Shown here piece after piece: positions 3,217 through 56,132 of a stretch of 64,000 nucleotides of DNA (its first letter is position 1; each line of letters begins with the position of its first letter). Under the pieces are notes generated by a model. It saw nothing but the letters and a program-made list of their open reading frames with translations, searched no databases and was not told the origin of the DNA. The stretch comes from a phage. Made by a program: the position numbers and the translations under genes. The DNA lies in the NCBI GenBank assembly GCA_018027755.1, contig GCA_018027755.1_4098.1; one strand, 5' to 3'.

Positions 3217-5324
<2,108 letters not shown>

Positions 5325-28832: not shown

Positions 28833-29441
28833 ATGAAATTAGAAACAGAACAACCAAAACTATTTGTTAAAGGTCATGTCCTAATTACTGACGTTACTGA
28901 TCCATCAAATCAAAAAATCGTTTTAGATAAATCTAACGCTATTCACCCTGAAAATATGAGTACTGCCATTGCTAATGCGTTAGCATATAATCAAGACAGT
29001 ACTGGTATTCCTATTGGTTCTATTAGCGAGATGCGTTTTGGTAATGGTGGTACAGTAGTTTTAAGTACTGGGCGTGTTACTTATAAAAAACCACGTGTTA
29101 CATCATTTGGTGGTTTGTATTCACAAACATATTTGAAAAAAATCAACCCACGAATTACGGCAGGTATTGATTCACAATACAATAATATTACAACTGTACA
29201 TATACCAGGTCAGTCCTATACTGATATTGTATGTATTTGTACTCTAGGGTTAGGTGAACCATCCGACCAAGGTGTAAGCTCAGGGACAAGCATGGATGGA
29301 ACTTATGTATTTGATGAATTGGGATTGTACACGGATGGCGATAGTGGTATTCCTTTAACCCATATCATTTTTCACCCAGTTGAGAAAAGTGCAAACCGTG
29401 TCTTACAAATTAAATACACAGTTCGTGTACAATTACAATAA
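28833..29441 (+). CDS. hypothetical protein
   Basis: ORF, tightly packed. Confidence 0.35.
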   Translation: MKLETEQPKLFVKGHVLITDVTDPSNQKIVLDKSNAIHPENMSTAIANALAYNQDSTGIPIGSISEMRFGNGGTVVLSTGRVTYKKPRVTSFGGLYSQTYLKKINPRITAGIDSQYNNITTVHIPGQSYTDIVCICTLGLGEPSDQGVSSGTSMDGTYVFDELGLYTDGDSGIPLTHIIFHPVEKSANRVLQIKYTVRVQLQ

Positions 29442-33965: not shown

Positions 33966-34005
33966 GTTTATTAATTAGAGTGACGTGAATCACATAGGAG
34001 AATAC

Positions 34006-36294
34006 ATGAATCTTACTCAATTGTTCAAAAAAAGCGACGAACTGGCAACATCTCTAGGTCATACATTCTTGACTATTGACCACGTAAGTGCCACAGTACT
34101 GACTATTGATAGCATCAAGAACGTATTTGAAGATATGAACATTGATGCAGACAAACTGCACAACCGCCTGATGAACTATCTTAAAAATACAACAGTTCCA
34201 CATGCACCAAAAAGTGTTAAAGATGAAGACGCGAATCGCACTTCACTTCTAGTGAATCGCGTTGTACATGAGCTTTCTAAAAAATCAGTTATTGAACAAC
34301 TAAAAAGTGATGATTTTTCGATTGATGCATATTTTGTTCTATTCGAATGTCTGTCTTTCCCTAACACAGCACTAGAAGCTGCGTTGAAAGAAGAAGGTGT
34401 TAGCTGTACTGAAGCTGCACGTGCATTGCAAAAACACGTTGAGTCACTTGATAAGGGTATCAACTTACAAAGTATTAATGACGAACCGATTGGAGATAAA
34501 AAAGTGGCCCAACAGCAGCAATCATCTAAACAAAAAGGTTTGGAAGACTATACAACGAATCTAACTGCTCTTGCAAAAGAAGGCAAACTAGATCCTATGA
34601 TTGGTCGCCAGAAAGAATTGTCTGCATTGATTGAGACTCTTGCTCGCAAAACCAAAAAGAATGCTATTCTTACTGGTGAAGCTGGTGTAGGTAAAACACA
34701 AATCATCGACGGTCTTGCACAAGCTATTGCTGACGGCAACGTACCTGAACACCTGAAAGACGTTGAAATTCTTTCACTAAATGTTGGTGCATTGACTGCT
34801 GGTACTAAGTATCGTGGTGAGTTTGAAGAACGCATCGACAATTTGCTAAAAGAACTAAAGAAACGTGAAAATACTATTGTTTTCATTGATGAAATTCATA
34901 TTATGGTTGGGGCTGGTTCCGCTAGTAATGGTTCTATGGACATGAGCAATATGCTTAAGCCAGCACTTTCACGTGGTGAGATTCGTGTAATTGGTGCAAC
35001 AACATATGATGAATATCGTAAAAATATCGAGAAAGATAGTGCATTAACTCGTCGTTTTATGAAAATTGATGTAGTTGAGCCGTCAATTGATGAAACTCGT
35101 GCAATTGTTAATGGTTTGAAACCAACTTATGAAAAATTCCATAATGTTGAGTTCACAACTGATGCAATGGATGCTGTAATTTCTCTCAGTGATAAATTCC
35201 TGAAGAATAAGCACTTCCCAGATAAAGCAATTGATCTAATGGACGCTGCCGCTGCAAAAGTTCGTTCACGTGACAACAATAGTAAGCTTATTACTGCCAA
35301 TTTGATTCAAGAAGTTGTTGCTGGTATTGCCAATTTGGATATCAACGTGGTTGCATGTACTGAAAGTGATCGTATGCGTAATCTACCAGATGCACTACGC
35401 TCACGTGTATACGGTCAAGAGGAAGCTATTCAAAAATTAGTTGATAACGTGATGGTAGCTCGTGCAGGACTGCGTGACAAATCTAGTGTTCAGGGTGCAT
35501 TTATGTTTGTTGGACCATCTGGTACTGGTAAAACAGAAATTACCAAAGCATTAGCAGATGCAACTGGTGCGGAACTGATTCGCTTTGATATGTCAGAATT
35601 TTCTCAAGAACATACTGTTTCTAAACTAATTGGTTCACCTCCAGGTTATGTTGGTCATGATTCTGGTAACGGTTTACTGTTGGATAAAATTGAGCAGTTC
35701 CCTAATGCAGTACTGTTACTTGATGAAATTGAAAAAGCAGATCGTAAAGTACTACTAACCTTCCTACAGGTTTTGGATGAAGGTCGCCTGACTGGTTCAC
35801 AAGGTAAAACTGTATATTTTAATAACGTAACTGTTATTATGACTACAAACCTTGGTGCGGCAGATTCAACGAAGCGTAGCATTGGTATGAGCGGTAGTGA
35901 TACTGCACAAGACAAGGCAATTAAAGCATTCTTGCCACCAGAGTTTATTAACCGTATTGATAGTATCGTTACGTTTAAAGACCTAAGCAGTGAAGCTATT
36001 GACAGCATCATTGATAAGTTCATGGGCAGTTTGAATGAACAAGTCAAAGACCGCAATGTTAAAGTTACATTGACAAAAGCTGCACGTGAATGGCTTGCGA
36101 AAAATGGGGTAAAAGTTGGCATGGGTGCACGTCCAATGAAACGTACCATTGAACAAAACATTCGTGTACCACTAGCTAAAGAAATGTTGTGTGGTTCACT
36201 TGTGAATGGTGGTAACATTACATTTGATGTTATTGATGGTAAAATCGGTATTAAACCGAAACGTTCCAAAGCTGTAGATAAAGCACTGGCATAA
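34006..36294 (+). CDS. ClpA/ClpB-family two-ring AAA+ unfoldase
   Basis: D1 Walker [10 protein letters not shown] and Walker B VFIDEIH; D2 Walker [10 protein letters not shown] and Walker [10 protein letters not shown]; Clp N-domain; IGM tripeptide at the position of the ClpA IGL loop; AGGAG RBS before ATG 34006 (track start 33985 is GTG). Confidence 0.85.
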
Positions 36295-36330
36295 AAAAGA
36301 AAAGGAGAGCAATATGCTCTCCTTTTTTAT
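36295..36330 (+). terminator. bidirectional intrinsic terminator
   Basis: AAGGAGAGC-AATAT-GCTCTCCTT flanked by A-run and T-run. Confidence 0.75.
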
Positions 36331-39300
36331 TACTTAACTAATAATATATTTTTAATATCATTACCACTAACTTGTAGACTATCAGTGTATACTGAAAGAT
36401 CTATAGTGTAACTATTTTGTGTGTAACGTTTTAACATATCATAATTACCTAAATTAATTCCATTGAAAGAATATGTAGTATTAAGTTTAAAATCATGTTC
36501 TGCACTATACATTACACCACGGAGTAAATTATTTGCATTTCTAACTTCAACTTTTTCATATCCAATCGATATAATATCATTCATGTTCGCGGCTGAACCG
36601 GATAAAACATTATTTCTAATACTATAAGGACTTATTGATTTAGGTTGAGAAACATAGGTTGTATTTTCTTCACTAATGGTTGTGATGTTAGTAACAGTAC
36701 CACCAACAACACCGATGTACATACCGTCAACCATTGGATATCCATAAACCCATATACCTTCATTATTTCTAAACGGTTGAATAACACTTGAGTCATATTC
36801 AATAACGTTGATTTCTAAACTATCAGTCATTTTAGTTCTTGCTAATTCACTAAGAACTCCCGCACCAGTAATTGGTAGGTTATAACCGTTGTCGATAGTA
36901 ATTCCATCAACATCAAATATTTCGTTAGAGATTATCCAAACGTCAACGTCATCTGGTGTTATTCCGTCATTGTACTTACCACCATTTAAAGTAGTATCGT
37001 AGAAAACATCATAATTAATTACATCAATTGTGTAATTTCTATTTTGTTCGTACAATTTGATACCATTCTTCACAAATTCTGGGTCAGCAAATGTTCTAAC
37101 ACGAACAATGTTCAATGCAAGAGGCTGTACTGGCTCATTTTGTTGTGCAAGAGTGATATTATCATAACGGAGAACTGTACCAGTACTCTCATCAATCAAT
37201 TCAATCGTTTCTTTACCTGTATTTCTTACAGTGAATAGGATCGGAGTTGTATTGTTTTTGATGTTAGATACACGCAAGATTGTTTCCCATGTGTGATTTT
37301 GATATCTCACAAAATCTTCACCATCAGGAGTGAAAATCATCACCTTATCACCATCAGATAGGTCATTGTCAACTATTTCTGCTTCAGTTAAGCTATTAAT
37401 AGATCTCACACGATAGAAATATTTTTCATCAAACTTCGATGTTGTTTTATTAATATCATTTTCAATCTTAGCATATGAAGGAATACTTACAATTGCTTCT
37501 GTATGTTTATATGGATTGATAATTGCCATACCTTCAGTTTGATATCTGCTGTTATCACGTAATTGTACAAGAGATACATTGTCAAACCCATATCCATCAA
37601 CTGTAAATCTAATTTGACCTACATCACGCCCAGAAGGGTTTATGTCAGATATATCCACAATATAAGGATCAACTTCATCATCTTTAACTTCCCATTTTAT
37701 TGAAGAAGTTTGAGATTCCAATGCTAGGTTATCAAATGCATTCATATCATTGAAGTACTTAGCTTCAGTAATACTATCAAGTATATATTGATAATCAGAA
37801 TACATTGGATTATTTTGATCTAGTGGTAAATCATCAAGATTTATTTCAGCTAGTTCAACCATTTCACCATTTGTGATAAAATAATCTTCCATGAAATCAT
37901 CAATACTTTGTTCATCAGGTATGCTTTGATATACACCGTTAACATTTAAGTAAACATATTTTCGTGGAATCATTGTAATTGCATAGATATCAATTGGGGT
38001 CTTACTAAGAATCTCTTCAGCTTTTTCGTACTTATCAGTAGCGTCTTTGTCGAATAACCCTCTCATACCTGCTAATACGTGAATAGCATCAGTATAGAAA
38101 CGGGTATCACCACCTACTTCATCATAACGATAAACATATACACCATACTCAACTTCAAGTTTAACTTTTACTTCATAGTCTGATGCGTCAGGATTTTTAT
38201 CTTTAATTAATGAAATGTATTTTTGATACAATTCACTGCTTATTTCAAAATATCCATAGTTATAATCATTACTAGAAGAAAAGCCTAATGGAAGTCTAGT
38301 ACTAGGATTGTCATTATAAGTAAGTCCACTAAATCCACATCCAACTTCATCGTGAATTTTCTCATCACTTATATCTTTATAAAGTTTCAAACGGTTTGCC
38401 AATGTGTTATACTGAACATATTGTCTAAGGTCAGTAAACATATCGTTATGCGTTGATTCTTTATAAACACGTTCCAATGTAGCAGTGAATTCATCAGTTG
38501 CTTCTAAATCTTCCGCATGGTCTTTATACCACTGGTTAACGCCATATGCTGTTCCTAGTGTTACATCCAATTCTGGATAGTAGATTTGCATTTGATAAGC
38601 AATAAGAAGATCGAAAGTTTCTTCACTATATTCTGGGAAAGAATATATATAACGTTGTAATTCATAGTTACTAACAGCATCCTTTTCATTGGATTGATAT
38701 TTGTTATTAACACTTACTAATTCATTTATGCTTGCCAAATCTTCATTTGGTTTACACTGAATATTATCATAATGCATAATAATATCAATTTCTTGGAATC
38801 TTCTATTTGGTGTAACGAAATCACTTGGTAGTGAACCTACCTGTTCCCATTTTTGGGTAATTTCATTAAATTGAGCGTACTCATAATCCCAAATATCTTT
38901 TTCAGTTTTGATCCAAGAACCATCAACGAAAATATATCCATTAGGATCTAAATCATTACATAGACCTTTTATTAAATCATCATCAGATGTCTTTTGCTCT
39001 ATTTGTGAACGAATTTTAGTTCTATAAGGTTTAACTTCTTCAAAATATTCAACAATTTGATTAATCAAATTATCGTTTGAATAGTTTTGAACTAATGATT
39101 GTTCCAAACCAACAATATAGATATATGATGTTTTAAATACCCAATCCACAACACTTTGTTCAACATGTACATATTTGACCATATCAAAAACAATTTCGCT
39201 TTGATGTAAATCGAAAGAATTTTTGAGTAAAGCTAGTGCTTTACGAACGTTGATTTCACGATTGCTTAGTGAACCATTATCATTATGAACACTATAATCT

Positions 39301-42300
39301 GCGTAAAGCATATCATTGAGTTCAACTGTACTGTTTTCACGACCAATCGCTTTCCAATAAATTGAATCGCGTGATTGTGATTTAATATACAATGTCCAAA
39401 TGTTTTCACTATCGGTAACTCTGATAATATCGCCAACTTGGTAGTTTTTAGTATTAGCATCTTCTAAGCTTGACTCTTGAGTATAAGTCGTGTTACTATC
39501 ATACCCAACATCATACCAATCAGCATATGACCAGTACTGAGTCATGTCCAATGAAGTTCCTAGTGATTCAACATAATCAGATTGTTTAATCATTTTATGT
39601 TGTCCCTCACCTTTGTTCTCTAACGTTATAGTAACAACACTACCCGCGTTTGCTGGACTATTCATTAACTGAATATATCCATTTTCGTCGAAGTGAATAA
39701 AATAAACAGCACTAGAAGTTAATGGATTTGGTAGATATCCACTAGTACTTAAAATAACAGCGTCATTTTCTTTAAATTTATCACTTTCAACTGCAATAAC
39801 TAATTCATTATTGTAAGACAATACACGGAAAGAAACTTCATTCGGATTAACTTCAGTGGTTTTAACATTAAACACATCTTCCATAACAACACTATTAGTG
39901 GTTATGTTTTGTGACCTATAATAATTATTAGCACTTTCTACAAAGTTTCTACGAGCTTCTATAACATTTTGGAACCAAGTTTTGTTTGATCCTAAACCGT
40001 TATCAACATCTGGATATAATAAATTAATCACAGAACCTGATTCAGTTGTTTCTTGACCAATTAGTGAGTTCCACATTGAATCCCAAATTAGTGGGTTAAA
40101 GTTATAGCTGTCACCTTCTTTACATAGTTGATACTGGTCATGTTTAACAACTTCAGTACTATCCATGTAATAAGAAACAGTTAAAATACTGGTATCATCA
40201 TTCACTTTAAATTGCATATTACTAAGAATAAACGAGTTTTCATTGATTGGAGCGAACCAAGGAATGTTTAGCTGTGTTGGATCTTTAATAATACGAGCAA
40301 TGTCAGTACATGATTTTGTTCTGGTATGTAGTGGTGGTACATAAATTGTATCACGTACCCAGAAATAGTATTTTGTCACATAACTATCAGTTGAACTATC
40401 ATATTCCAAAAATGTACTATAATTATCTTCAAGTGCAGTTCCACTTGGTAGATACATAGTATTATTTTTGTTTTTCTTAGCAACATCTTTACAGTATTTG
40501 TCCCAGTTATATGGCTCAACTGGTGAACAAACCCACTCTAACACATCAATTGTACTATGTGGTAATAAACGACCCCAGTTGTAACGTTTGTATTCATTGG
40601 TTGCATCAATGTCAACATTACCGTCTGCGTCATAAATTGCACGTGTATAATCCAAATAAAATGCAGTACTTGTATTCCACCATACTTGACCAACTTTATC
40701 AGCACCCCAAGCCTGAATTAATTCACCATTGCTATTATATTGTGCTGGGTCTATTGGTGACGTATAAGTTACGTTTTGCATTGCTGCACCAGGAATAACC
40801 CCATTGATAGGGTCATACACATTTAGATATAATGCAGTAATGTTAGTACGTTCATCATATGTAGTTGGACGGTCAAAAAAAGTACTTTGTGGTGCTTTGT
40901 AACTATACTTTTTGTCAATATATGCTTGACGCTCTTCTGCACTGGCAAAACGTGATACATAACGATACAAACGTGGACGTGTATCTGGATCAGTAAATTC
41001 AATATCAATAGATGTGTCAAATGGAACTACCATAACTTTAGGATCAGAACCAGCAGTATAATATTGACTTTCTACTGTTAAAGTATCTGGCATAAAGTTA
41101 GTTTCATCAACAAAATAATAATAATCACCATCTTCAAGTGGTACATTATCAGTTAAAGTTACTTTACAAAATTGTTCAGCATACACATCGGTATTTTCAA
41201 TAGGTGTTATAGAAACCATTTGTACATTAGTATCAACCAATTCAAAAATGTTCCACAAACCATTACCGTCTTTAAACATCCACACAGATTCAGGATTTTC
41301 ACCTTTACCATTAGTATAAGTTATGCGGTCATTATATGCAGTACTGAAATCTTTTGTTGTGTACGATACTTCATCCAATGTTACTGGACCAATATCTGGA
41401 AGTTGGATATTTTCACTTCTTCCACTACGCATTGGGAATGAGAACTTACCATTTGGACGTGTAATCCAACGAGGATCTTTACCCTGCTCACCGAAGTATA
41501 CAATATGATTACCATTACCATTTGAAGTTGCATTTACATCAAAAGAAACCATTTGAGGTTGTTGTTTAAATTGGTCATTAATCAATTTAAATTGAAGATT
41601 TTTCTTACCATCAATATTACCATATGTACCAATTTTAAATGCCCATTCTTGTAATGCTTTATATTCATCTGTGTCATATGATTTAGAAACACGAAGTACA
41701 CGTTCTAAAACTTGGTTAGTACCTTTATCATGAATGAATCCTTTATAGAAATCAACACGACTAACATCACTACTAATCATACGCTGTAGATAATCACGAG
41801 ATTGATAACCAATCAAATGGTTTGACAACTCTTGTAATTGTACATCACTTACTGGAGTTTCACTATCATAATAATGTTGGAAATCCGACACTAATTTTTC
41901 AAATGATGGTAGTGTTCCAGCTTCCAAGATAATAAATCCAGGAGCTTGTAGACGACCAGTCCATGAACCAGTAATGTAGCCATACATTTTAATTAATTCT
42001 TGAATAGAACCATAAGTTGGCTGATAGATATAATCACCAAAAATAGTCTTATCATCAAAAATAACAGCATGTTCATATGAACACAAACTTAAACGAATTA
42101 ATGCTATACGTTTATTGGATTCTAAAGTTCTAACAGTAAAGATATTACCAATACGAGAAGTTTCAATTTCATATTGACGTATACCTTGGTTGTTATCATC
42201 AAGTAATGACCACACACCACCGTTATTTTGTGTAATAGATTGAACTGAACCAAAGTCTGCACCAAATTTAGCATTTGCTGCACTTGGTGTACAAGAAATA

Positions 42301-45300
42301 AATTCACCCGTTACCAGAGAATTCTGACTCCAGATCACAAAATCTTTAGCAATAGTGTTCCAATCTTGTTGAGCACCACTATCATTTACATCTTCAAAAA
42401 TCCAGCCATGTTCTTTAAGATATTCACCATAACCACAAATAAAAGTATAAACTTCTTGGTAACTATTAAAAACTTTACCATATTCAATGGAAGCTTCAGA
42501 TTTCCATTCGTTATAATGAACAACATTGCGGTTTTCTAATTTAAGAGTTACTTTTCTACCATTTTTTACGGGAAGTTTATATTTAAATTTAGCACCAACT
42601 AGATCATATCCATCAATCTGATATGCACTACCATTCCAAGTAATTTTGATCGCACTCATTTGCTCATCACGGATATTATTAGAACGAACAAGACCAATGG
42701 TTTGGTTTTCTTGTGAAATAAGACCGAAAGATTTAGCATTGAATGTTAGCTGATCTGCTTTAGTAAAACCACCAATTTTATGACCAACATTTATATAAGA
42801 AGAACGAACTACATCCCCATATTTGGTTGTAATGTTTTTATTTTGATACATCAAATAATCACTAACAAACATTTGATAACCAATTGTTCTTGTGTTATTT
42901 TCACCATGAACTACAGTGTTTTTATCAAAATTAATACGCTTACGTGTATCACCATAAAGGAATTGTGAACCATCAGTGAATACTTCTTTTAAATTGTCAT
43001 TTCGGGTATCCCAAAAATAGTTAGCAAATTGTGCTGGTTTAGCTTTATACAAAAGCATCATTTGGTCATATGCAAACAATGTAGTGTTCATGTATGTAAA
43101 TTCCATGTCACCCATATCACCATATGTCCAAGGTTCTGCTCTATGATTTAAAGATCCAGACACTAAACCTAAAATTTCAGGTGCAATATATTCAACCACA
43201 CAAATATCAATACCAGAAGATGTTTTATTTCCAGTTTTTGTAATTTTGAATGGCTGTACACCAAATCTTTTATATTTGTCATATTGACCACGACGATCAC
43301 CAAATAAAATAGTTCCAGTACTGCTATCTCCGATAGTGCCGTCGATATCCCATAGACCACTAGGAACTAAATCTCCTTGTTCATTCATAACAAGTGCTTC
43401 ATATACATATACCACATCACTATCACGCTCACCAACTTGAACAGCAGTTGGTTCATATTCTTGGTTCCACCAAGTTGGACGCTGTGAAAAGCCAAACATT
43501 TCCCACGGATGTGTTGCAGGGCGATATGTACCATATTGGTCAGTATAAATTGCACGCCATGAACCACGAGCAGGAATTTCAGTACTTTGACCATTAACTA
43601 CATAATAAGTGCCAGTATAGTTCCAAGTTCTCCAATTGTTAGGATCATAATCATGTGTACTATTACTGATACCATTAGTTGCGGTGAAGTTAATGTATCC
43701 ACGTAGTAATAATGTTTGTTTCTCTTCAGCACTATATTCAGTTTTAGTGAAATATGGTGTAGGGAAAAGGTCATCACTATTCAATACTGGTACGTAATCA
43801 ACATCTTTGAATTTATTATCAATACTATTAAAAATTCTATTTTCTAATTCATATACAACATCATCCATTTTATCAACACCATTGATAACACGGTATGCTT
43901 TGGAAATAATACCAGTATGACTGATGTTATAACAGCTTGGTTTACTACCAGCAGTGAGGAATGTCGCTTTTTCTGGTACATATGCTTGAAGAATACCTAA
44001 GAACTGTGGTGTTGGTGGTATAAATGCACGAATGAATCCAGAAGTACTTCCAACATTATCATAATAGAATGGGAATGAACTATCACGTCCCATATTAATA
44101 GTAGTTAAAATTGCATCAACAATGTTTGCAGCACTATTTTGTAAAAAGTCTGATGGATTTTCATCATACATACGAAGCATTTGTGTATTAAATTTATTAA
44201 TGAATCTAAAATATTCAGATTGCATAAACATAGTTGCTTCAAACAAATCAATATCTTCATTTGCAGTATGTGCCATCAATGGAAGCATAGATGCTTCATT
44301 TTGGATAATTTTAGTACCTACGCCATTATTAACCAATCCTTTAGCCAAACGTTCTTCATAGTCATTGAAATCATCAGAAGAACCACGTGTAATGTTCTTT
44401 TGAATAATATCCTGAAAATGTAAAGTGTAGTCACCTTGGTTAATGTATATAATATTAGAATTATATGGGTTATTTTGTAGGTTGATTGGAACTTCATATG
44501 CACCTAATTCTTTATTAGGAGTTACAGTACTGCTATAAGTTCTGATTTGAATAACAGAATCTTCATCCAAATCTACAGTACTATCTAGAGTGATGCTTTG
44601 TACTTGACCTTTTGAAACATTTTTGGTATATTTGGACACATCAACACCATCAACCACAACTTCAATAATATCAGAATCATTATCTAAAACTTTTTGTGCC
44701 AATTCGAATGTATGGTCATATTTTACAATCTGAACACCATCACCAGTAATTGGATGCCAATCTAGATAAGTTTCACGGTCAGCTTTATAGTACTGATATG
44801 TTCTATCAACTTCAATAACATATGCATACATACCATCAACTGGTTCTTTAAAAACTTCCATATCATAAACAGTACTGAATACACGATACATATCAGTACG
44901 TTGGACTTGTGGAGTTTGTTTTACAAATTGTTTAGAGTACTCTTCTGAACGAACCCAATCGGTTTGAAGATTCATTTCATTATTTTCATCAATAATGTTA
45001 TAATAGTATAAACCATCAATTTCAACTTCTTTCCCAAGATGGTCATAGGTATAACGTTGGGATTGTAAAAAGTTTTCATAAATGTAATAATTATAATCAC
45101 CAAGTTCAATGTTATATCCATATACACTATCAGTTGCATAGTTGTAATTTATTTTAAAACCAAACAACTCTGAACCTTTAAAGTTACTTGATGGATATGT
45201 AGTACTGTTGTCAAGTTTGATACCATTACGATCATAAAGTTGGAATTTAGGGAATACGTTAACACTAGTTTTTGATTGTGCACGAACCCACAAAGATCCA

Positions 45301-46331
45301 TTCCAGTACATAGAACTATTACCATACTCATTACCTTTAGTGATTAGAACAACATCACCATCTTGTGGTTCACCACTTGGGCGTGATTCGGTTTCTTCTT
45401 CTGGATCTAGTGCTAAACCATAAACACGAGTACCATCTTGCATTTTTTTCACATATACATTATAAATTCTATTGTTTTCACCATTGTTACCAATACTGGT
45501 GAATAGAATACGCATTCCATCTTGCGGAATAATACCATCAATACGTATACCACTATTAATATCTTTTTGAACGATATCTTCAGGTTTAATAATATCAGAG
45601 AACAGATCAACAGTTCCACGGAATTTTGTACCGTAGTTAATTAGCTCAATATTTTTATTATATTCAATAATTGGTGCACGTGCACGAATAAAACGTGAAT
45701 CTTGCATTAATTCTTCAGTTAATATTGAGCCATCTTCTAATGTTTCACCTAAAGTATACCAAAAGTTTTGTAGTGACCATGTATTACCATTAAGTGCTCC
45801 ACGTTCCATTACAATGTAATCAGGTGAAGTAATATTATAAGAGTTTTTAGTATCCCAAAGATATGAGCTAAAATTGTTCATTTTATTTGGGTTAATAGCT
45901 GGAGTCCATGCATAAAACTTACCGTTGAACAAACGGCTTTCATTATCGGTTAGTGCTCCATAATGATTCATGTATCCAACTAGATCATCATAAAATTGAA
46001 TTGAACGAATTGTCGAATCATCATTTTTTGAGACGTAAGCAGTGGACAACTGATAAAGTTGACGTGCTACAGTACTTTCATGTAAGAAGATATTACCAGC
46101 AGCGGCAGGAGAACCCATATCACCAATATAGCCGTCAACTAATTCGTTTTCAGCCGGATTAAACCATTGTTGAATAACATCATCACTGACTTTTTGAATA
46201 TCTTCTAAGCCTTGCATCCACTCAGGCAATCTTTTAATAAAAAGCTTCTTCTGTACTGCTTCAGCCATCTGTGTAGGTTGAAACTTAAAATTATTAGTCA
46301 TTTTTGGACTCCATATAATTCGTTCATTCAT
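36330..46331 (-). CDS. giant 3333-aa virion protein, possibly expanded baseplate wedge/fiber-network (gp7-position) protein
   Basis: Single uninterrupted 10-kb ORF; sits directly downstream of the gp25-like and gp6-like genes where the gp7/I-type wedge protein lies in T4/P2-like baseplate modules; no catalytic motif recognised. Confidence 0.55.
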   Translation of the reverse strand: MNERIIWSPKMTNNFKFQPTQMAEAVQKKLFIKRLPEWMQGLEDIQKVSDDVIQQWFNPAENELVDGYIGDMGSPAAAGNIFLHESTVARQLYQLSTAYVSKNDDSTIRSIQFYDDLVGYMNHYGALTDNESRLFNGKFYAWTPAINPNKMNNFSSYLWDTKNSYNITSPDYIVMERGALNGNTWSLQNFWYTLGETLEDGSILTEELMQDSRFIRARAPIIEYNKNIELINYGTKFRGTVDLFSDIIKPEDIVQKDINSGIRIDGIIPQDGMRILFTSIGNNGENNRIYNVYVKKMQDGTRVYGLALDPEEETESRPSGEPQDGDVVLITKGNEYGNSSMYWNGSLWVRAQSKTSVNVFPKFQLYDRNGIKLDNSTTYPSSNFKGSELFGFKINYNYATDSVYGYNIELGDYNYYIYENFLQSQRYTYDHLGKEVEIDGLYYYNIIDENNEMNLQTDWVRSEEYSKQFVKQTPQVQRTDMYRVFSTVYDMEVFKEPVDGMYAYVIEVDRTYQYYKADRETYLDWHPITGDGVQIVKYDHTFELAQKVLDNDSDIIEVVVDGVDVSKYTKNVSKGQVQSITLDSTVDLDEDSVIQIRTYSSTVTPNKELGAYEVPINLQNNPYNSNIIYINQGDYTLHFQDIIQKNITRGSSDDFNDYEERLAKGLVNNGVGTKIIQNEASMLPLMAHTANEDIDLFEATMFMQSEYFRFINKFNTQMLRMYDENPSDFLQNSAANIVDAILTTINMGRDSSFPFYYDNVGSTSGFIRAFIPPTPQFLGILQAYVPEKATFLTAGSKPSCYNISHTGIISKAYRVINGVDKMDDVVYELENRIFNSIDNKFKDVDYVPVLNSDDLFPTPYFTKTEYSAEEKQTLLLRGYINFTATNGISNSTHDYDPNNWRTWNYTGTYYVVNGQSTEIPARGSWRAIYTDQYGTYRPATHPWEMFGFSQRPTWWNQEYEPTAVQVGERDSDVVYVYEALVMNEQGDLVPSGLWDIDGTIGDSSTGTILFGDRRGQYDKYKRFGVQPFKITKTGNKTSSGIDICVVEYIAPEILGLVSGSLNHRAEPWTYGDMGDMEFTYMNTTLFAYDQMMLLYKAKPAQFANYFWDTRNDNLKEVFTDGSQFLYGDTRKRINFDKNTVVHGENNTRTIGYQMFVSDYLMYQNKNITTKYGDVVRSSYINVGHKIGGFTKADQLTFNAKSFGLISQENQTIGLVRSNNIRDEQMSAIKITWNGSAYQIDGYDLVGAKFKYKLPVKNGRKVTLKLENRNVVHYNEWKSEASIEYGKVFNSYQEVYTFICGYGEYLKEHGWIFEDVNDSGAQQDWNTIAKDFVIWSQNSLVTGEFISCTPSAANAKFGADFGSVQSITQNNGGVWSLLDDNNQGIRQYEIETSRIGNIFTVRTLESNKRIALIRLSLCSYEHAVIFDDKTIFGDYIYQPTYGSIQELIKMYGYITGSWTGRLQAPGFIILEAGTLPSFEKLVSDFQHYYDSETPVSDVQLQELSNHLIGYQSRDYLQRMISSDVSRVDFYKGFIHDKGTNQVLERVLRVSKSYDTDEYKALQEWAFKIGTYGNIDGKKNLQFKLINDQFKQQPQMVSFDVNATSNGNGNHIVYFGEQGKDPRWITRPNGKFSFPMRSGRSENIQLPDIGPVTLDEVSYTTKDFSTAYNDRITYTNGKGENPESVWMFKDGNGLWNIFELVDTNVQMVSITPIENTDVYAEQFCKVTLTDNVPLEDGDYYYFVDETNFMPDTLTVESQYYTAGSDPKVMVVPFDTSIDIEFTDPDTRPRLYRYVSRFASAEERQAYIDKKYSYKAPQSTFFDRPTTYDERTNITALYLNVYDPINGVIPGAAMQNVTYTSPIDPAQYNSNGELIQAWGADKVGQVWWNTSTAFYLDYTRAIYDADGNVDIDATNEYKRYNWGRLLPHSTIDVLEWVCSPVEPYNWDKYCKDVAKKNKNNTMYLPSGTALEDNYSTFLEYDSSTDSYVTKYYFWVRDTIYVPPLHTRTKSCTDIARIIKDPTQLNIPWFAPINENSFILSNMQFKVNDDTSILTVSYYMDSTEVVKHDQYQLCKEGDSYNFNPLIWDSMWNSLIGQETTESGSVINLLYPDVDNGLGSNKTWFQNVIEARRNFVESANNYYRSQNITTNSVVMEDVFNVKTTEVNPNEVSFRVLSYNNELVIAVESDKFKENDAVILSTSGYLPNPLTSSAVYFIHFDENGYIQLMNSPANAGSVVTITLENKGEGQHKMIKQSDYVESLGTSLDMTQYWSYADWYDVGYDSNTTYTQESSLEDANTKNYQVGDIIRVTDSENIWTLYIKSQSRDSIYWKAIGRENSTVELNDMLYADYSVHNDNGSLSNREINVRKALALLKNSFDLHQSEIVFDMVKYVHVEQSVVDWVFKTSYIYIVGLEQSLVQNYSNDNLINQIVEYFEEVKPYRTKIRSQIEQKTSDDDLIKGLCNDLDPNGYIFVDGSWIKTEKDIWDYEYAQFNEITQKWEQVGSLPSDFVTPNRRFQEIDIIMHYDNIQCKPNEDLASINELVSVNNKYQSNEKDAVSNYELQRYIYSFPEYSEETFDLLIAYQMQIYYPELDVTLGTAYGVNQWYKDHAEDLEATDEFTATLERVYKESTHNDMFTDLRQYVQYNTLANRLKLYKDISDEKIHDEVGCGFSGLTYNDNPSTRLPLGFSSSNDYNYGYFEISSELYQKYISLIKDKNPDASDYEVKVKLEVEYGVYVYRYDEVGGDTRFYTDAIHVLAGMRGLFDKDATDKYEKAEEILSKTPIDIYAITMIPRKYVYLNVNGVYQSIPDEQSIDDFMEDYFITNGEMVELAEINLDDLPLDQNNPMYSDYQYILDSITEAKYFNDMNAFDNLALESQTSSIKWEVKDDEVDPYIVDISDINPSGRDVGQIRFTVDGYGFDNVSLVQLRDNSRYQTEGMAIINPYKHTEAIVSIPSYAKIENDINKTTSKFDEKYFYRVRSINSLTEAEIVDNDLSDGDKVMIFTPDGEDFVRYQNHTWETILRVSNIKNNTTPILFTVRNTGKETIELIDESTGTVLRYDNITLAQQNEPVQPLALNIVRVRTFADPEFVKNGIKLYEQNRNYTIDVINYDVFYDTTLNGGKYNDGITPDDVDVWIISNEIFDVDGITIDNGYNLPITGAGVLSELARTKMTDSLEINVIEYDSSVIQPFRNNEGIWVYGYPMVDGMYIGVVGGTVTNITTISEENTTYVSQPKSISPYSIRNNVLSGSAANMNDIISIGYEKVEVRNANNLLRGVMYSAEHDFKLNTTYSFNGINLGNYDMLKRYTQNSYTIDLSVYTDSLQVSGNDIKNILLVK

Positions 46332-46345: not shown

Positions 46346-46376
46346 ATATAAAAAAGGCGTTCCGAAGAACGCCCGT
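46346..46376 (-). terminator. intrinsic terminator between gp6-like and giant gene
   Basis: Minus strand GGGCGTTC-TTCG-GAACGCC followed by TTTTTTAT. Confidence 0.6.
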
Positions 46377-49907: not shown

Positions 49908-49942
49908 TCAAAAAGAAAAGCACTCCGAAGAGTGCTTTTATA
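49908..49942 (-). terminator. bidirectional hairpin terminator
   Basis: GCACTC-CGAA-GAGTGC flanked by A/T runs. Confidence 0.55.
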
Positions 49943-49943
49943 A

Positions 49944-50339
49944 TTATAAAGACGAAACTGAATATGTTGCCATTCGATTATTACTTCTTGCATCAAATAC
50001 TATAGTAAGTTCTTCTAATGTGTCCAATACTACGTACTGTAATACAATATTCATTTGGTATCCATATTCTATTCTTGAAATTTGTAATTTTTTAAGATTT
50101 AAACGTGGGTCTAAGCTAATTATTCTACGGGCATCTGCTTCTAAAAGGTTGATAGTATTATAACCTTCCAATTCAAATAGCAAATCCCATGCAATAAACC
50201 CATAGTCAGCATCAAATGCTCGTTCACCTTTTTTTGTATTGAAATGATTCATTAAATCTTGGCGAACCAATTCACTATCATACAATGTTTCAGTTCTACC
50301 AACTACAGGGGTAGAAAACCCTTTAAAAACAACTGCCAT
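49944..50339 (-). CDS. baseplate wedge subunit, gp25-like
   Basis: 131 aa; KGERAFDADYGFIAWDLLFE matches T4 gp25 KGSRPFDPEFGCDLSDQLFE region. Confidence 0.65.
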   Translation of the reverse strand: MAVVFKGFSTPVVGRTETLYDSELVRQDLMNHFNTKKGERAFDADYGFIAWDLLFELEGYNTINLLEADARRIISLDPRLNLKKLQISRIEYGYQMNIVLQYVVLDTLEELTIVFDARSNNRMATYSVSSL

Positions 50340-50859: not shown

Positions 50860-50867
50860 TATTTATA
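50860..50867 (-). promoter_or_regulatory. T4-type late promoter box TATAAATA
   Basis: Exact TATAAATA on minus strand about 17 nt upstream of lysozyme ATG, followed by GAGGA RBS. Confidence 0.5.
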
Positions 50868-50879: not shown

Positions 50880-53543
50880 TTATTGACATGCCTCCAAACG
50901 ACGAGCCATTAACTCCGCACGGCGTGTGGTTTGGCGATACCAAGCAGAATTGCGGATTTGTGCCGCTGCTTGTTTATAATTACCTTTTGCCATTTCTGAT
51001 AACATAGTTTTAAATTTCAATACACCACCTTTACCCATCTGAAATACCATTTGGCATAGTACTTGTTGAGCAAGATAAGGAGTTTTCATGTTATATGAAG
51101 CATAAATTGATTTGGCATCATAAATTGCTTTACTACTATCACGAACTAACATATCATTTGCTTGTTGTTCAGTTATTCCATCAGAGAAGTTTTCACCGCT
51201 AACAATTAAGTGACCGTAACCAATAGTTGGATATCCACGACTATCTAAATAACGCCAGAACTTACCATTACGATAATATCCCTTTGCTTGTTGATATTGT
51301 AATGTACCCTCATATTCTTTTAATTCAGAAATAAACTGAGCATCACCTGGAACAACTTTCCAATCTATGGCTGTTTTATCAACATTACCTATATTATAAG
51401 TTGGTTGCTCAACTGGCGTAGTTGAAACACCACTTCTTTGTGTTCTTCTCCTACGAGGAACATGTCGTGAACCACGTTGTGAATAACCTGTACCAATTGT
51501 TTTAATTTTTGTAGTAACTACTAATTCATCACTATCAACAGAAGGTTGCACTACTGCTTGAGGTGCAGATTGATTGGTTGCTTTTCCTGCAATTAATGTT
51601 TTATTGGCTGCGTCAGAACCAGTACCAGTTTGAGATGCATAAAATAGACCCGGATCAACTGAACCGCTAAAACCAAGCACGTTAGCTGATGTAACACGTA
51701 TTTCAAACTGTATAACACCATTTGCTTTACCAACAACTTGGCCTTTTTGAACAACATCTTTGTTTAATAAATCAGATTGAATATTATAAAATACAGATTT
51801 ATATCCTGACTTATGTTGTATTAACAGTGCACCATTAGTAATTACTATTACACCACCATCGGGTGCAACTATGTCACCTTTACATTGTATTTCCCATCCA
51901 GAACGATCTGACTTCCCACCACTTTGTGTTGGAACACCTTTCCCCCAATAACCATATTGGCGAATAGTACCACTACATGGCATGAACATATGTAAACCTT
52001 CATATGTAATACTATATCCAGTCATCCCAGGGTCAGATGTCATTAAATCTTGAGATTGCACTTGTTCAGTTTCTGATGTATAGTTAACAAACTGAACAGC
52101 TTCAGTGTCTTGTGCTACGGGTAATTCTGGTGATACATCATTTGCTGGTTGTGGTTGTACTGGTGATTCACTAGAACCACTTCCACCACCTTGTCTTGGT
52201 GGTTCAACATAACTACCATGATTTTCAGCGTTAACCCATGCAGCAATATCATGAATGTGTTCATTAAGACCAGCAGATGGTGTTCTAAAGTTTGGTGCAG
52301 TAAATTCAGCAGTACCGCTATTACCACCACTATTAACTGTTAATGTTTGACCACCACCACTAATAATTGCTGATGATGATCCAATTAGGTTTGCAGATGT
52401 TGCGGCAGAAATAGAAGCATTTGAACCAGCCGTAATATCAGTACTGCTACCACTTTGCATACGTAATGATGCAGCAGTAACTAAACGAAGGTCTGCCCCA
52501 GAATTAACAACAACTTGACCACCAACTTTTGCATCAAGAGCACCAATTAGATCTAATTTAGTATTTGCACCAACTCGTGCATTGAAATCTTGTCCGGTTT
52601 CAATATTATATGAACGTCCAGCAGTAATATTAATATCTTGACCAGCACGAATATTAATATTCTTATCACAATGCATGTCAATATCACCTTCACCAGTGAA
52701 TTTTATACGTGCAGTGCCATCACGGTTAATTAAAAGAACATCACCAGTAGCTTCTGATAAAAGAAGTTGTGCACCACTACGTGTTTTTATTACGACACCT
52801 TCATTTTTACGAGAACCAACACGTGTATCGTTTACTGGGTTATTAAATTGTGTATCTTGATATCCATCTGGGTCTTGATCCCACGTTGGTGCTGTTAATT
52901 CCTCTTCAGTATATCCATCATCAATAATAAAACTATTACCACGTGGCGAAGACATACCATATACAGTACTGGTGGTTTGACGAGTACTACTACGATTCGC
53001 CAACCCAGCTTCTTCGTCATATAAAAGGTTTTGCTTTTTAAGACCTGCGATAATTGGAACGTTAGCATATTTGTCTTGCATATCGGTAGTGATAGTGTTA
53101 CGATCATAGTCAGTAACAGGAAGTGGCATATCAGTTCCACCATAATTACTTACTTCAGTTGCCATACCAGGAACCATAGTATTCATACGCTGGTCATATA
53201 CACAACCAATCCAATATGCTTGGAATGTACGGGCTTGTGCAAAAATTACAACAACTGTACACCCTACATCTGGTGGTACTGCCCAAAAACCATATCCTTT
53301 TGGATATTGACCATATGCATCAGCACTTGGAATACCTGGTGTTTTGCCAGCAAAAGGAGACATGTAAGATGCTTCTATCCATGATTCTTTTGAGTTTTTA
53401 TCACTTTGAGAACCTTGTATCCAAACTTTCAGTTTTCCTGATTTAGTTGGATCTCTGTTATCCATAACAGTTGCTAACTGCGGATAAGATGGGTCAAAAC
53501 GACCCAACTGCTGTTGTGCATACTTTTTACTTGTATCTGCCAT
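50880..53543 (-). CDS. baseplate central spike (gp5-like) with degenerate M23-like domain and C-terminal lysozyme domain
   Basis: N-terminal OB-type motif DPTKSGKLKVWIQG; beta-helix-like repeats NINIRAGQDINITAGRSYNIETGQDFNARVGANT; M23-like segment lacking the His ligands (CKGDIV, YNIQS, VIQFE); C-terminal GH24 domain EYEGT...PTIGYGHL...MVFQMGKGGVLKFK. Confidence 0.75.
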   Translation of the reverse strand: MADTSKKYAQQQLGRFDPSYPQLATVMDNRDPTKSGKLKVWIQGSQSDKNSKESWIEASYMSPFAGKTPGIPSADAYGQYPKGYGFWAVPPDVGCTVVVIFAQARTFQAYWIGCVYDQRMNTMVPGMATEVSNYGGTDMPLPVTDYDRNTITTDMQDKYANVPIIAGLKKQNLLYDEEAGLANRSSTRQTTSTVYGMSSPRGNSFIIDDGYTEEELTAPTWDQDPDGYQDTQFNNPVNDTRVGSRKNEGVVIKTRSGAQLLLSEATGDVLLINRDGTARIKFTGEGDIDMHCDKNINIRAGQDINITAGRSYNIETGQDFNARVGANTKLDLIGALDAKVGGQVVVNSGADLRLVTAASLRMQSGSSTDITAGSNASISAATSANLIGSSSAIISGGGQTLTVNSGGNSGTAEFTAPNFRTPSAGLNEHIHDIAAWVNAENHGSYVEPPRQGGGSGSSESPVQPQPANDVSPELPVAQDTEAVQFVNYTSETEQVQSQDLMTSDPGMTGYSITYEGLHMFMPCSGTIRQYGYWGKGVPTQSGGKSDRSGWEIQCKGDIVAPDGGVIVITNGALLIQHKSGYKSVFYNIQSDLLNKDVVQKGQVVGKANGVIQFEIRVTSANVLGFSGSVDPGLFYASQTGTGSDAANKTLIAGKATNQSAPQAVVQPSVDSDELVVTTKIKTIGTGYSQRGSRHVPRRRRTQRSGVSTTPVEQPTYNIGNVDKTAIDWKVVPGDAQFISELKEYEGTLQYQQAKGYYRNGKFWRYLDSRGYPTIGYGHLIVSGENFSDGITEQQANDMLVRDSSKAIYDAKSIYASYNMKTPYLAQQVLCQMVFQMGKGGVLKFKTMLSEMAKGNYKQAAAQIRNSAWYRQTTRRAELMARRLEACQ

Positions 53544-55817: not shown

Positions 55818-56132
55818 TTAGCCTATGTTTCGAGTACCATTAAGATAATTTTGTACTCTTTGATTTGCTGGTATTCTAATTGTTACTCCACTTTTAAAAT
55901 TATATATAGGATCTTCTCCTAGTATGTCTGGATTTAACAATGCGAAAATATAATATAAGCGTTCATTACCATACATTTCGTATGCTAAACGCCAAGGTTG
56001 ATATTCATATTTCAATGGGATCTCATAAAAATCATCAGTATCAGCCGGAACAATATCACGTGGTAAATTATACCCAAGATACCATGTTTGTTTCACCTTA
56101 GCGTAAGGTGAGTATTGACTATAGTTGGACAT
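55818..56132 (-). CDS. LysM-like small baseplate protein (gp53 / P2 X-like)
   Basis: YEIPLKYEY...RLAYEMYGNERLYYIFALLNPDI...GVTIRIP resembles a LysM fold; position upstream of hub/spike. Confidence 0.35.
   Translation of the reverse strand: MSNYSQYSPYAKVKQTWYLGYNLPRDIVPADTDDFYEIPLKYEYQPWRLAYEMYGNERLYYIFALLNPDILGEDPIYNFKSGVTIRIPANQRVQNYLNGTRNIG

What the first reader, a model, noticed from the sequence alone, without database searches (positions are those of the whole stretch)
36330..46331. 3333-aa giant ORF in the gp7 position of the baseplate module
An uninterrupted 10-kb gene directly after the gp25-like and gp6-like wedge genes. T4 gp7 is about 1000 aa, so this is a threefold or greater expansion if homologous, and may carry extra fiber-anchoring or enzymatic domains. 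Short antisense ORFs in the track are almost certainly artefacts.
Basis: partly seen in the sequence, partly recalled or inferred. Interest (0 to 1): 0.6.

Follow-up and report, generated by a model that had tools for sequence, protein, structure and literature searches.

The report
Giant baseplate-module virion protein of jumbo coliphage
The 10-kb gene is real and is the known but uncharacterised 382-kDa virion protein of PBECO4/121Q-type jumbo coliphages, sitting where a baseplate "gp7" gene normally sits; it belongs to a very large family of giant phage proteins, but I could not show that it is related to T4 gp7.

Summary
The ORF is confirmed: window 36330-46331, minus strand, 3333 codons, no interruption. 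The likely true start is M11 (ATG 46301, with a GGAG 7 nt upstream), giving 3323 aa and 381.9 kDa.

The window is an Asteriusvirus (98.4% nt identity to PBECO4, phAPEC6 and 121Q). Orthologues are annotated "virion structural protein" and were detected in virions by mass spectrometry.

It lies directly after gp25-like and gp6-like genes. This order recurs in five of six distant metagenomic relatives (~28% identity) and in PA5oct.

The family is very large: 1220 clusters at 50% identity. Nearly all of the 150 members listed are 2000-6281 aa.

T4 gp7 homology was not demonstrated. Pfam, NCBIfam, PDB sequence and profile searches and fold searches of aa 11-2250 gave nothing significant. hhalign gave only short, weak motif matches (P 0.002-0.1), no weaker than the gpI versus T4 gp7 positive control.

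A new result is that the protein is a fusion of two modules. In two relatives aa ~2376 onward is a separate 1330-aa gene.

No enzymatic domain was found. Relatives carry carbohydrate-binding inserts at hot-spots, and the C-terminal ~830 aa evolve fastest.

Best reading: a wedge-to-periphery baseplate scaffold in the gp7 slot, with the function inferred.

The parts
36330..46331 (-). Uninterrupted ORF of 3333 codons plus stop (as annotated in PBECO4 gp538)
36330..46301 (-). Probable real CDS starting at M11 (3323 aa, 381.9 kDa)
   Evidence: GGAG at 46312-46309, 7 nt before ATG 46301. Homologues and phrog_10938 start at residue 11. The computed mass equals that listed for phAPEC6 gp245.
39222..46301 (-). 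Module A (aa 11-~2370). This is the family-wide conserved core. Distant homologues have insertion hot-spots at aa ~160, ~767, ~1280 and ~1784.
   Evidence: AlphaFold models cover aa 11-1050 (pLDDT 76) and aa 1051-2250 (pLDDT 67).
41412..42134 (-). Most conserved block (aa 1400-1640). It contains the motifs EH..IFDN, WNGR..APG, HLIGYQ and FY.G.I..KGT...LLR...EEWAF..G.YG. It is predicted helical but modelled with low confidence as a monomer.
36333..39206 (-). Module B (aa ~2376-3333). It is a separate 1330-aa gene in two relatives.
   Evidence: The N-terminal 125 aa of the L126 1330-aa gene align to aa 2376-2499 (31% identity, E 2e-12). The same gene matches phrog_10938 positions 2369-2446 (6.7e-17).
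38985..39245 (-). Conserved junction block at the start of module B (aa 2363-2449; motif FF.M..YV..EQ..VDW.FKTS.I...G...L.Q......YI.EVKPY.TKIR)
   Evidence: Present in 232 of 262 family members; alignment A9. Weak, convergent hhalign matches to the gp6-like N-terminal helical domain, T4 gp7 833-875 and gpI 127-149.
36333..38834 (-). Fast-evolving, lineage-specific C-terminal region (aa 2500-3333)
   Evidence: Identity to close relatives is 30-50% here against 56-76% in the core, and it is not alignable in distant relatives. No stand-alone homologues of similar length were found.
46355..46374 (-). Terminator-like hairpin with a T-run between the gp6-like gene and the giant gene
36300..36326 (-). 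12-bp-stem terminator-like hairpin immediately after the stop codon
46381..49842 (-). gp6-like baseplate wedge protein (1153 aa), upstream neighbour
   Evidence: phrog_219 1.2e-20 and phrog_10646. Counterparts in relatives carry PF27647.
49944..50339 (-). gp25-like sheath initiator / wedge protein
   Evidence: Pfam GPW_gp25 1.2e-8
55818..56132 (-). gp53-like wedge protein (104 aa)
   Evidence: Pfam Phage_gp53 1.1e-4, above the curated cut-off; phrog_7145
50880..53543 (-). gp5-like hub/spike protein with a C-terminal lysozyme domain
   Evidence: Pfam Phage_base_V, DUF2345 and Phage_lysozyme
28833..29441 (+). 202-aa protein (phrog_11259). Its homologues lie immediately downstream of the giant gene, or of module B, in distant relatives.
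   Evidence: tblastn 41-45% identity, E 1e-31 to 1e-44; phrog_11259

Best explanation
The ORF encodes the largest virion protein of an Asteriusvirus jumbo myophage. It belongs to the baseplate gene module and most likely acts as the wedge-to-periphery scaffold of the baseplate.

Shown: it is a real, conserved, virion-associated protein encoded right after the gp25-like and gp6-like wedge genes.

Inferred: it fills the slot that gp7 (P2 gpI, TssG) fills in other contractile systems. One copy per wedge would dock on the (gp6-like)2 pair through one of its conserved helical blocks. These blocks are modelled poorly as a monomer: aa 1477-1548, or the junction block at aa 2363-2449. The remaining ~3000 mostly beta-rich residues would build the outer baseplate and provide docking sites for the phage's several fibres and tailspikes.

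The chain is a fusion of two modules: A (aa 11-~2370) and B (aa ~2376-3333). In some relatives these are consecutive genes.

The fast-evolving C-terminal ~830 aa, and the carbohydrate-binding modules inserted at fixed hot-spots in relatives, suggest that the distal parts face the host surface or lineage-specific fibres.
For: - ORF and conservation.
- Virion presence of orthologues: phAPEC6 gp245, 381.88 kDa, 17 unique peptides (PMC7247149); CBB_236, 21 peptides, next to the CBB_237 baseplate wedge (PMC5259590).
- Module context in the window: gp53-like, gp5-like, lysozyme, gp25-like, gp6-like, then the giant gene.
- The same order occurs in relatives at 25-31% identity (L003, L004, L005, L125, L126) and in PA5oct (gp130, gp129, gp128). 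The gp6-like and giant genes overlap in three of these loci. Tail-fibre genes follow the giant gene in L003 and L004.
- No other ORF in the module matches a gp7-type family.
- Family size and giant length: 1220 clusters, and nearly all of the top 150 are 2000-6281 aa.
- Relatives carry CBM_5_12 (7 of 16 scanned), He_PIG, and Laminin_G_3, FG-GAP and TIG inserts.
- The C-terminus evolves fastest.
- The fused and split architectures are shown.
Against: - No statistically sound link to gp7, gpI or TssG was found. Pfam, NCBIfam, PDB sequence and PDB profile searches were empty.
- T4 gp7 did not appear among the fold-search results for aa 11-2250.
- The hhalign matches are short (19-67 columns) with P 0.002-0.1, and lie in three different places.
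- In one relative (L127, P0089) the giant gene is not next to gp25 or gp6 genes.
- Baseplate location, copy number and binding partners have never been measured.
- aa 2251-3333 were not modelled.
- PHROGs files the family under 'head and packaging'. This is a default label for MS-detected virion proteins.
Confidence: 0.55

Rival explanations
1. It is a true, highly expanded homologue of T4 gp7 / P2 gpI. A diverged gp7 core would be embedded in the chain, and the rest would be lineage-specific additions.
For: - Synteny and gene overlap with the gp6-like gene.
- The best hit of a P2 gpI family profile over the whole 3333-residue profile is the invariant KGT motif: gpI 79-103 against aa 1534-1563. 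P is 0.043 against the full length, 0.0026 against the region and 0.0017 with 262 family sequences.
- T4 gp7 833-875 and gpI 127-149 both align to the EVKPYRTKIR motif (P 0.015 and 0.098).
- The positive control, gpI versus T4 gp7, itself reaches only P 0.009, so the method is too weak to exclude homology.
Against: - Every match is short and near noise. Unrelated T4 baseplate queries give similar top scores: gp6 27.6 and gp10 24.0.
- The two motifs lie about 900 residues apart, in different modules.
- There are no Pfam Gp7 or Tail_P2_I hits in any of 16 diverse members.
- There is no gp7 fold hit.
Confidence: 0.3
2. It is a peripheral baseplate or fibre-network scaffold that is not part of the wedge heterotrimer. 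This would be analogous to phiKZ gp27, gp139 or gp26, or to T4 gp8, gp10 or gp11. The gp7 role would be played by another protein, such as the 749-aa or 273-aa proteins of the module, or by module B alone.
For: - phiKZ shows that jumbo phages build large outer baseplate platforms from dedicated scaffold proteins (PMC13250141).
- Weak fold hits go to gp10-like TSP4 domains and to phiKZ outer-periphery chains.
- Module B is a stand-alone gene in some relatives, and it begins with a block that weakly resembles the gp6-like N-terminal helical domain (P 0.011).
- The 749-aa and 273-aa module proteins have no assigned function.
Against: - The gene adjacent to gp6 is gp7-like in T4 and P2 and, from established knowledge not tested here, in Mu, T6SS and eCIS.
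- The 749-aa protein lies between gp53-like and gp5-like genes, a position more consistent with a hub (gp27-like) protein.
- No candidate shows any gp7 signal.
Confidence: 0.3
3. It is not a baseplate component. It would be a head-internal or ejected protein, or part of the tail 'hair' fibres seen on phAPEC6 and CBB.
For: - PHROGs category 'head and packaging'.
- phAPEC6 and CBB carry unusual hair-like fibres of unknown composition.
Against: - The genomic position inside the baseplate module is conserved.
- The family also occurs in phages for which the sources consulted here do not mention hairs (RaK2, PA5oct).
- The protein is beta-rich and multi-domain, with no repeats, unlike fibrous or internal-body proteins.
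Confidence: 0.07
4. The ORF is an artefactual fusion of neighbouring genes caused by sequencing or assembly error.
For: - Some Salmonella phage SD-* records annotate the region as 3-4 CDS.
- Split forms exist in distant relatives.
Against: - The ORF is intact in dozens of independently sequenced genomes and in hundreds of metagenomic clusters of the same length.
- The measured mass listed for phAPEC6 gp245 fits the full chain.
Confidence: 0.01

Closest known systems
PBECO4 gp538 / phAPEC6 gp245 / 121Q gp582 / CBB_236 / PA5oct gp128 (phrog_10938, 'virion structural protein')
   Same: These are orthologues: 98% nt identity within Asteriusvirus and 58% aa identity to CBB. They have the same length and the same neighbours, and they are MS-detected virion proteins.
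   Different: Nothing differs; this is the same gene. None of the papers read assigns it a role.
T4 gp7 (baseplate wedge, 1032 aa; Pfam Gp7_helical, Gp7_5th, Gp7_6th)
   Same: The gene lies immediately after the gp6 homologue in a gp53/gp5/gp25/gp6 module. It is a large multi-domain virion protein. The expected role is the adaptor between the inner wedge and the periphery.
   Different: It is three times longer. There is no sequence, profile or fold match. The only signal is a 42-column hhalign match at P 0.015.
P2 gpI / Tail_P2_I (PF09684), the minimal gp7-like protein
   Same: The gene order W-J-I-fibre resembles gp25 - gp6-like - giant - small protein - fibres. J/I-type start-stop overlap is seen in relatives. 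Shared short motifs are KGT...EW and a helix followed by K-P-x-R.
   Different: gpI is 176 aa. The matches are not significant. In the giant protein the two motifs lie ~900 aa apart and in different modules.
phiKZ baseplate (gp87 x2 + gp128 wedge; gp27, gp139, gp26 and gp130 outer platform; PDB 9xqs, 9xqd)
   Same: It is a jumbo-phage baseplate with a very large outer periphery that serves as a fibre platform. Weak fold matches to gp87 and to outer-periphery chains were found.
   Different: phiKZ builds its periphery from many separate proteins of at most ~960 aa. Here one (or two) giant chains would do the job. No reliable homology was found.
CBA120 TSP4 N-terminal region (gp10-like XD domains; PDB 7rfv, 7rej)
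   Same: It is the best fold match of aa 11-1050. Such domains are docking sites for further fibres and spikes in branched adsorption organelles.

Membership tests
T4 gp7 baseplate wedge protein | Match to the Pfam gp7 domain models (Gp7_helical PF21428, Gp7_5th PF21427, Gp7_6th PF21456) | tested here: not met
   T4 gp7 hits all three models at 1e-30 to 1e-47. The giant protein, its 500-aa tiles and 16 diverse family members hit none, even at E <= 5-10.
T4 gp7 baseplate wedge protein | Pairwise or profile-profile sequence similarity to gp7 | tested here: inconclusive
   BLASTP gave nothing (best E 0.79). hhalign of the T4 gp7 core family aligned gp7 833-875 to aa 2408-2449 at P 0.015, probability 3%. 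The positive control, gpI versus gp7, reached only P 0.009.
T4 gp7 baseplate wedge protein | Fold similarity to the gp7 core in solved baseplates | tested here: inconclusive
T4 gp7 baseplate wedge protein | Gene immediately downstream of the gp6 homologue within the wedge module | tested here: met
   Met in the window, in L003, L004, L005, L125 and L126 and in PA5oct. One exception is L127.
T4 gp7 baseplate wedge protein | Forms the (gp6)2-gp7 heterotrimer through a three-helix core bundle and trifurcation unit | not testable with these tools
   This needs multimer prediction or cryo-EM.
T4 gp7 baseplate wedge protein | Structural component of the virion | tested here: met
   Published MS of orthologues: phAPEC6 gp245 (17 peptides) and CBB_236 (21 peptides). 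This shows virion presence, not baseplate location.
P2 gpI / Tail_P2_I (PF09684) / TssG-type minimal gp7 | Match to the family HMM or profile | tested here: inconclusive
   There was no Pfam hit. hhalign of an 11-member gpI alignment aligned the KGT motif, gpI 79-103, to aa 1534-1563, at P 0.043 (full length) down to 0.0017 (block profile) and probability 1-16%.
gp6 / Baseplate_J wedge proteins (possible paralogy of the core) | Fold or profile similarity to the gp6 N-terminal helical domain and domain II | tested here: inconclusive
phrog_10938 (RaK2-like giant virion structural protein) | Full-length match to the family profile | tested here: met
   E = 0, 5791 bits, residues 11-3330 against profile positions 1-3324.

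The most novel reading that the evidence does not exclude
A very large clade of jumbo phages (at least 1200 clusters at 50% identity) replaces the multi-protein outer baseplate of T4 or phiKZ with one giant chain, or two consecutive chains. Its ~2400-residue conserved core has no detectable relative among solved structures. It docks on the gp6-like pair in place of gp7. It also carries fixed 'display' hot-spots (aa ~160 and ~1784) into which lineages insert carbohydrate-binding and Ig-like modules. This would make it a new baseplate architecture and a possible host-range determinant.
Probability: 0.35. Interest if true: 0.65.

Novelty: new variant of a known kind. Interest (0 to 1): 0.4.

Why it matters
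RaK2-like jumbo phages (PBECO4, 121Q, RaK2, K64-1, GAP32, CBB, PA5oct) are candidates for therapy and biocontrol. Their adsorption apparatus is unusually complex, and no baseplate structure was found for them. No relative appears among solved structures, and the only tail reconstruction seen, for phAPEC6, is at ~25 A.

This gene takes ~3% of the genome and about 382 kDa per copy. If there are six copies per baseplate it would contribute ~2.3 MDa, which is an inference. Assigning it to the gp7 slot would complete the conserved wedge set (gp25, gp6, gp53, gp7) for this clade.

The two-module, fused-or-split architecture and the insertion hot-spots give concrete construct boundaries for structural work and for engineering. 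The family is also one of the larger blocks of conserved phage protein sequence with no structural or functional annotation.

Tried and rejected
1. Sequence searches against Pfam, NCBIfam and PDB were run on the whole protein, on 500-aa tiles, on the most conserved block in 9 members and on 16 diverse members. Only accessory CBM_5_12 and He_PIG domains in relatives were found.
2. PDB profile searches were run with a full-length 29-sequence profile and with two block profiles. Nothing relevant was found.
3. Fold searches of two AlphaFold tiles gave only weak tail and baseplate hits and no gp7. Whole-tile searches of ~1000-1200-residue multi-domain models are a poor test. All prediction and fold-search quotas are used.
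4. A search for T4 gp7 relatives to build a profile returned only 5 proteins of 283-733 aa. The C-terminal 853 aa as query returned nothing, although full-length homologues exist. That tool evidently reports only hits of comparable length, so 'all homologues are giant' was re-tested with the filter-free search, and it held.
5. The search for related loci for P2 gpI and T4 gp7 gave only close relatives. A diverse gpI alignment was therefore assembled by hand from 10 phage records.
6. By eye, the N-terminus (RLP...E...WFNP) resembled the gpI N-terminus (LLP...E...WNPD). hhalign did not support this.
7. The T4 gp6 domain II match to aa 172-229 (P 0.059) vanished with a richer profile.
8. I tested the idea that the conserved ~195-aa protein downstream of the giant gene in relatives is the real gpI. 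It is beta-rich, belongs to phrog_11259 and shows no gpI similarity.
9. Self-BLAST for internal repeats found none.
10. The T4 late promoter TATAAATA is not enriched: 2 sites against 10.6 expected, and none at this gene.
Full report
**1. Observation**

The window contains one uninterrupted ORF at 36330..46331 on the minus strand: 3333 codons starting at an ATG. With the window's composition the stop-codon frequency is 0.072 per codon. A stop-free run of this length then has a probability of about 1e-108.

The three antisense ORFs of 80-95 aa are what chance gives. The longest antisense stop-to-stop stretch is 105 codons, against 108 +/- 18 in 200 codon-order shuffles.

The real start is probably the second ATG (46301, M11).
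- It has a GGAG 7 nt upstream, whereas the first ATG has no ribosome-binding site.
- Database homologues and the PHROG profile begin at residue 11.
- The mass computed from M11 is 381.93 kDa. This equals the 381.88 kDa listed for the phAPEC6 orthologue.

Terminator-like hairpins flank the gene at 46374-46355 and 36326-36300.

**2. Identity of the window and of the gene**

The gene is 97.9-98.4% identical in nucleotides, over its full length, to Escherichia phages phAPEC6, G17, PBECO4, 121Q and others of the genus Asteriusvirus (~350 kb). It is 60-90% identical to the Klebsiella (RaK2, K64-1), Cronobacter, Erwinia and Serratia relatives.

In PBECO4 RefSeq it is gp538, 'virion structural protein'. 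So the gene is known, but none of the papers I read gives it a role.

The orthologues are virion proteins by mass spectrometry.
- phAPEC6 gp245: 17 unique peptides, 7.6% coverage (PMC7247149).
- CBB_236: 21 peptides, listed next to the CBB_237 baseplate wedge (PMC5259590).

That test is therefore passed for orthologues.

**3. Context**

On the minus strand the order of genes is:
1. a 273-aa protein;
2. a gp53-like protein of 104 aa (Pfam Phage_gp53, 1.1e-4);
3. a 749-aa protein;
4. a gp5-like hub with lysozyme (887 aa);
5. a lysozyme (162 aa);
6. a gp25-like protein (131 aa; GPW_gp25, 1.2e-8);
7. a gp6-like protein (1153 aa; phrog_219, 1.2e-20 over the N-terminal helical region);
8. the giant gene.

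A convergent AAA+ protease gene follows, then a 501-aa virion protein and a gp15-like sheath stabiliser. Tail-fibre and tailspike genes lie further downstream.

The gp25, gp6-like, giant order recurs in five metagenomic relatives that share only 25-31% identity: L003, L004, L005, L125 and L126. It also recurs in PA5oct (gp130, gp129, gp128).
- In L003, L004 and L125 the start of the giant gene overlaps the stop of the gp6-like gene, as P2 J/I and T4 6/7 do.
- In L003 and L004 fibre genes follow.

One relative, L127, lacks this context. No other ORF of the module matches a gp7-type family.

**4. The family**

A word-indexed search found 198 homologues, all 2780-5638 aa long. That tool appears to return only proteins of comparable length. 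I therefore repeated the question with a filter-free HMMER search of 1.84 billion representatives, using a profile of aa 1400-1640.
- 1220 clusters reached E <= 1e-3, and 748 reached E <= 1e-30.
- Nearly all of the best 150 are 2000-6281 aa long.
- The block always lies ~1300-1900 residues from the N-terminus; the few short hits are presumably fragments.

In cultured phages the family covers the whole RaK2-like supergroup, including PA5oct, Atu_ph07, Phosso, RsoM2USA and Xoo-sp13. It is always annotated as hypothetical or structural.

The conserved core is aa ~14-2470.
- Distant members have insertion hot-spots at aa ~160 (median insert 157 aa), ~767, ~1280 and ~1784 (median 287 aa, up to 1194 aa).
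- The C-terminal ~830 aa is not alignable in distant members, and evolves fastest even among close ones: 30-50% identity against 56-76% in the core.

The only Pfam domains in the family are accessory ones in relatives. These are CBM_5_12 in 7 of 16 scanned members, He_PIG, and, from precomputed hits, FG-GAP_2, Laminin_G_3 and TIG. The window's protein has none. It has no internal repeats and a pI of 4.6.

**5. A two-module fusion**

On the contigs carrying P0072 and P0073 (L005 and L126), the homologue stops at 2780 and 2779 aa. In L126 the next gene begins 46 nt later, in another reading frame, with its own GGAG and a GTG start.
- It encodes a separate 1330-aa protein (the copy in L005 is cut off by the contig end at 384 aa).
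- Its first 125 residues align to aa 2376-2499 of the window protein (31% identity, E 2e-12).
- It also matches positions 2369-2446 of phrog_10938 (6.7e-17).

Of 262 family sequences, 232 carry this junction block in the same chain. The other 30 include fragments and about 15-20 long proteins that end before the block.

The window protein is therefore module A (aa 11-~2370) fused to module B (aa ~2376-3333). Module B is a conserved ~100-residue block followed by a variable ~860 residues.

A conserved ~195-210-aa protein (phrog_11259) follows the giant gene, or module B, in relatives. In the window its homologue is the 202-aa ORF at 28833-29441 on the other strand.

**6. Is it gp7?**

Direct tests were negative or inconclusive.
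- BLASTP against T4 gp7 gave nothing.
- The Pfam gp7 models, Tail_P2_I and TssG models never hit.
- NCBIfam gave nothing.
- phmmer and three profile searches against all PDB sequences gave nothing relevant.

I modelled aa 11-1050 (pLDDT 76) and aa 1051-2250 (pLDDT 67) with AlphaFold2, using 23-sequence alignments. Most domains are beta-rich and confidently modelled. Several conserved helical stretches are poorly modelled as a monomer: aa 22-52, 1075-1106 and 1477-1548.

The fold searches gave only weak matches.
- For aa 1051-2250, the best matches are a phiKZ inner-baseplate chain (E 6.9e-4, probability 0.11) and lambda gpJ (E 0.028).
- T4 gp7 never appeared.

All the better hits are tail or baseplate proteins. 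That fits the context but proves no homology.

I then built a diverse P2 gpI alignment (11 sequences) and a T4 gp7 core alignment, and ran hhalign locally.
- The best gpI hit over the entire 3333-column profile is the invariant KGT motif: gpI 79-103 against aa 1534-1563. P is 0.043, improving to 0.0026 against the region alone and to 0.0017 with a 262-sequence block profile.
- Three queries converge on the junction block. These are gp6-like aa 17-90 against aa 2363-2429 (P 0.011), T4 gp7 833-875 against aa 2408-2449 (P 0.015) and gpI 127-149 against aa 2421-2443 (P 0.098).
- The positive control, gpI versus T4 gp7, which are accepted structural homologues, reaches only P 0.009.
- Unrelated T4 baseplate queries give similar raw scores.

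The method can therefore neither establish nor exclude homology.

**7. Most likely mechanism**

Shown: this is a real, strongly conserved, virion-associated protein. It is encoded in the gp7 position of a T4-like wedge and hub module, and it is a fusion of two modules.

Inferred:
- One copy per wedge binds the (gp6-like)2 pair through one of the conserved helical blocks that do not fold confidently alone.
- The remaining ~3000 residues form the outer baseplate and the docking platform for this phage's several fibres and spikes.
- The variable C-terminus, and in relatives the inserted carbohydrate-binding modules, face the host surface or lineage-specific fibres.

Confidence in this general reading is 0.55. 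Confidence that it contains a genuinely homologous gp7 core is about 0.3.

The main rival is that it is a purely peripheral scaffold and that another protein, or module B alone, is the gp7 equivalent.

**8. Novelty and verdict**

The gene is already in the databases and in virion proteomes, so its existence will not surprise a specialist.
- the corrected start codon;
- the size of the family;
- the conserved synteny, including gene overlap with the gp6-like gene;
- the insertion hot-spots;
- the fused and split two-module architecture;
- a documented failure of sequence and fold methods to link ~2400 conserved residues to anything solved.

It is best filed as a new variant of a known kind: a baseplate wedge-to-periphery protein. 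Interest is moderate at 0.4. It would be higher if a structure shows a single-chain outer baseplate.

Noticed in passing
window 28833-29441 (+): This 202-aa ORF (phrog_11259, unknown function, beta-rich) is 41-45% identical to the ~195-210-aa protein that lies immediately downstream of the giant gene, or of module B, in distant relatives (L003, L004, L125, L126). Here it sits ~7 kb away on the opposite strand. It is likely a conserved partner of the giant protein.
   Followed up: partly
L126 18387-22379 and L005 18377-19528: This is the split form of the family. A separate 1330-aa gene (the copy in L005 is cut off by the contig end) starts with the block that is internal (aa 2376-2499) in the window protein. 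It carries a weak DUF4183 match (3.1e-5).
   Followed up: yes
window 33985-36294 (+): A 769-aa AAA+ 'ATP-dependent protease' gene (phrog_4871) is inserted convergently between the giant gene and the 501-aa virion protein / gp15-like genes. It shares the strong hairpin at 36300-36326. This is an odd location for such a gene, inside a baseplate and tail module.
   Followed up: no
window 50355-50843 and 50880-53543 (-): There are two lysozyme-domain proteins side by side in the hub region: an 887-aa gp5-like protein (OB domain, DUF2345 and C-terminal lysozyme) and a separate 162-aa lysozyme. One of only two exact TATAAATA motifs in the window lies just upstream of the small one, at 50860-50867.
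   Followed up: no
window 53557-55806 and 56132-56953 (-): The 749-aa and 273-aa proteins of the baseplate module have counterparts of similar size at the same position in distant relatives, but no Pfam, NCBIfam or PDB sequence match. The 749-aa protein lies between gp53-like and gp5-like genes and could be the gp27-type hub.
   Followed up: partly
window 46355-46374, 49916-49939, 36300-36326 (-): GC-rich hairpins with T-runs follow the gp25-like, gp6-like and giant genes individually. Ten terminator-like sites were found, against 5.1 +/- 2.3 expected. This suggests attenuation or RNA-stability elements between the wedge genes. In distant relatives the same genes overlap instead.
   Followed up: no
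L127 (contig of P0089): In this relative the 2879-aa family member is not next to gp25 or gp6-like genes. It lies between terminase-region genes and a 312-aa protein with a weak T4_baseplate match. No junction block was found within 10 kb.
   Followed up: partly
phage records OR699183.1, OR699181.1, OR699182.1 (Salmonella phage SD-*): The orthologous gene is annotated as 2-4 CDS, and the match is split into 2-3 pieces in two of the records (OR699181.1, OR699182.1). These are probably assembly or sequencing errors in those records rather than biology.
   Followed up: no
tool behaviour: the search for homologous proteins returned only hits about 0.65-1.7 times the query length. A 432-aa fragment of T4 gp7 gave only 283-733-aa proteins, and an 853-aa fragment of the giant protein gave nothing. 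Length distributions taken from that tool alone are biased.
   Followed up: yes
window 18356-23881 (-): The 1841-aa tail-fibre protein matches phrog_4549 in nine separate stretches, so it is an internally repetitive fibre. phAPEC6 gp256 (180 kDa) is its MS-detected orthologue.
   Followed up: no
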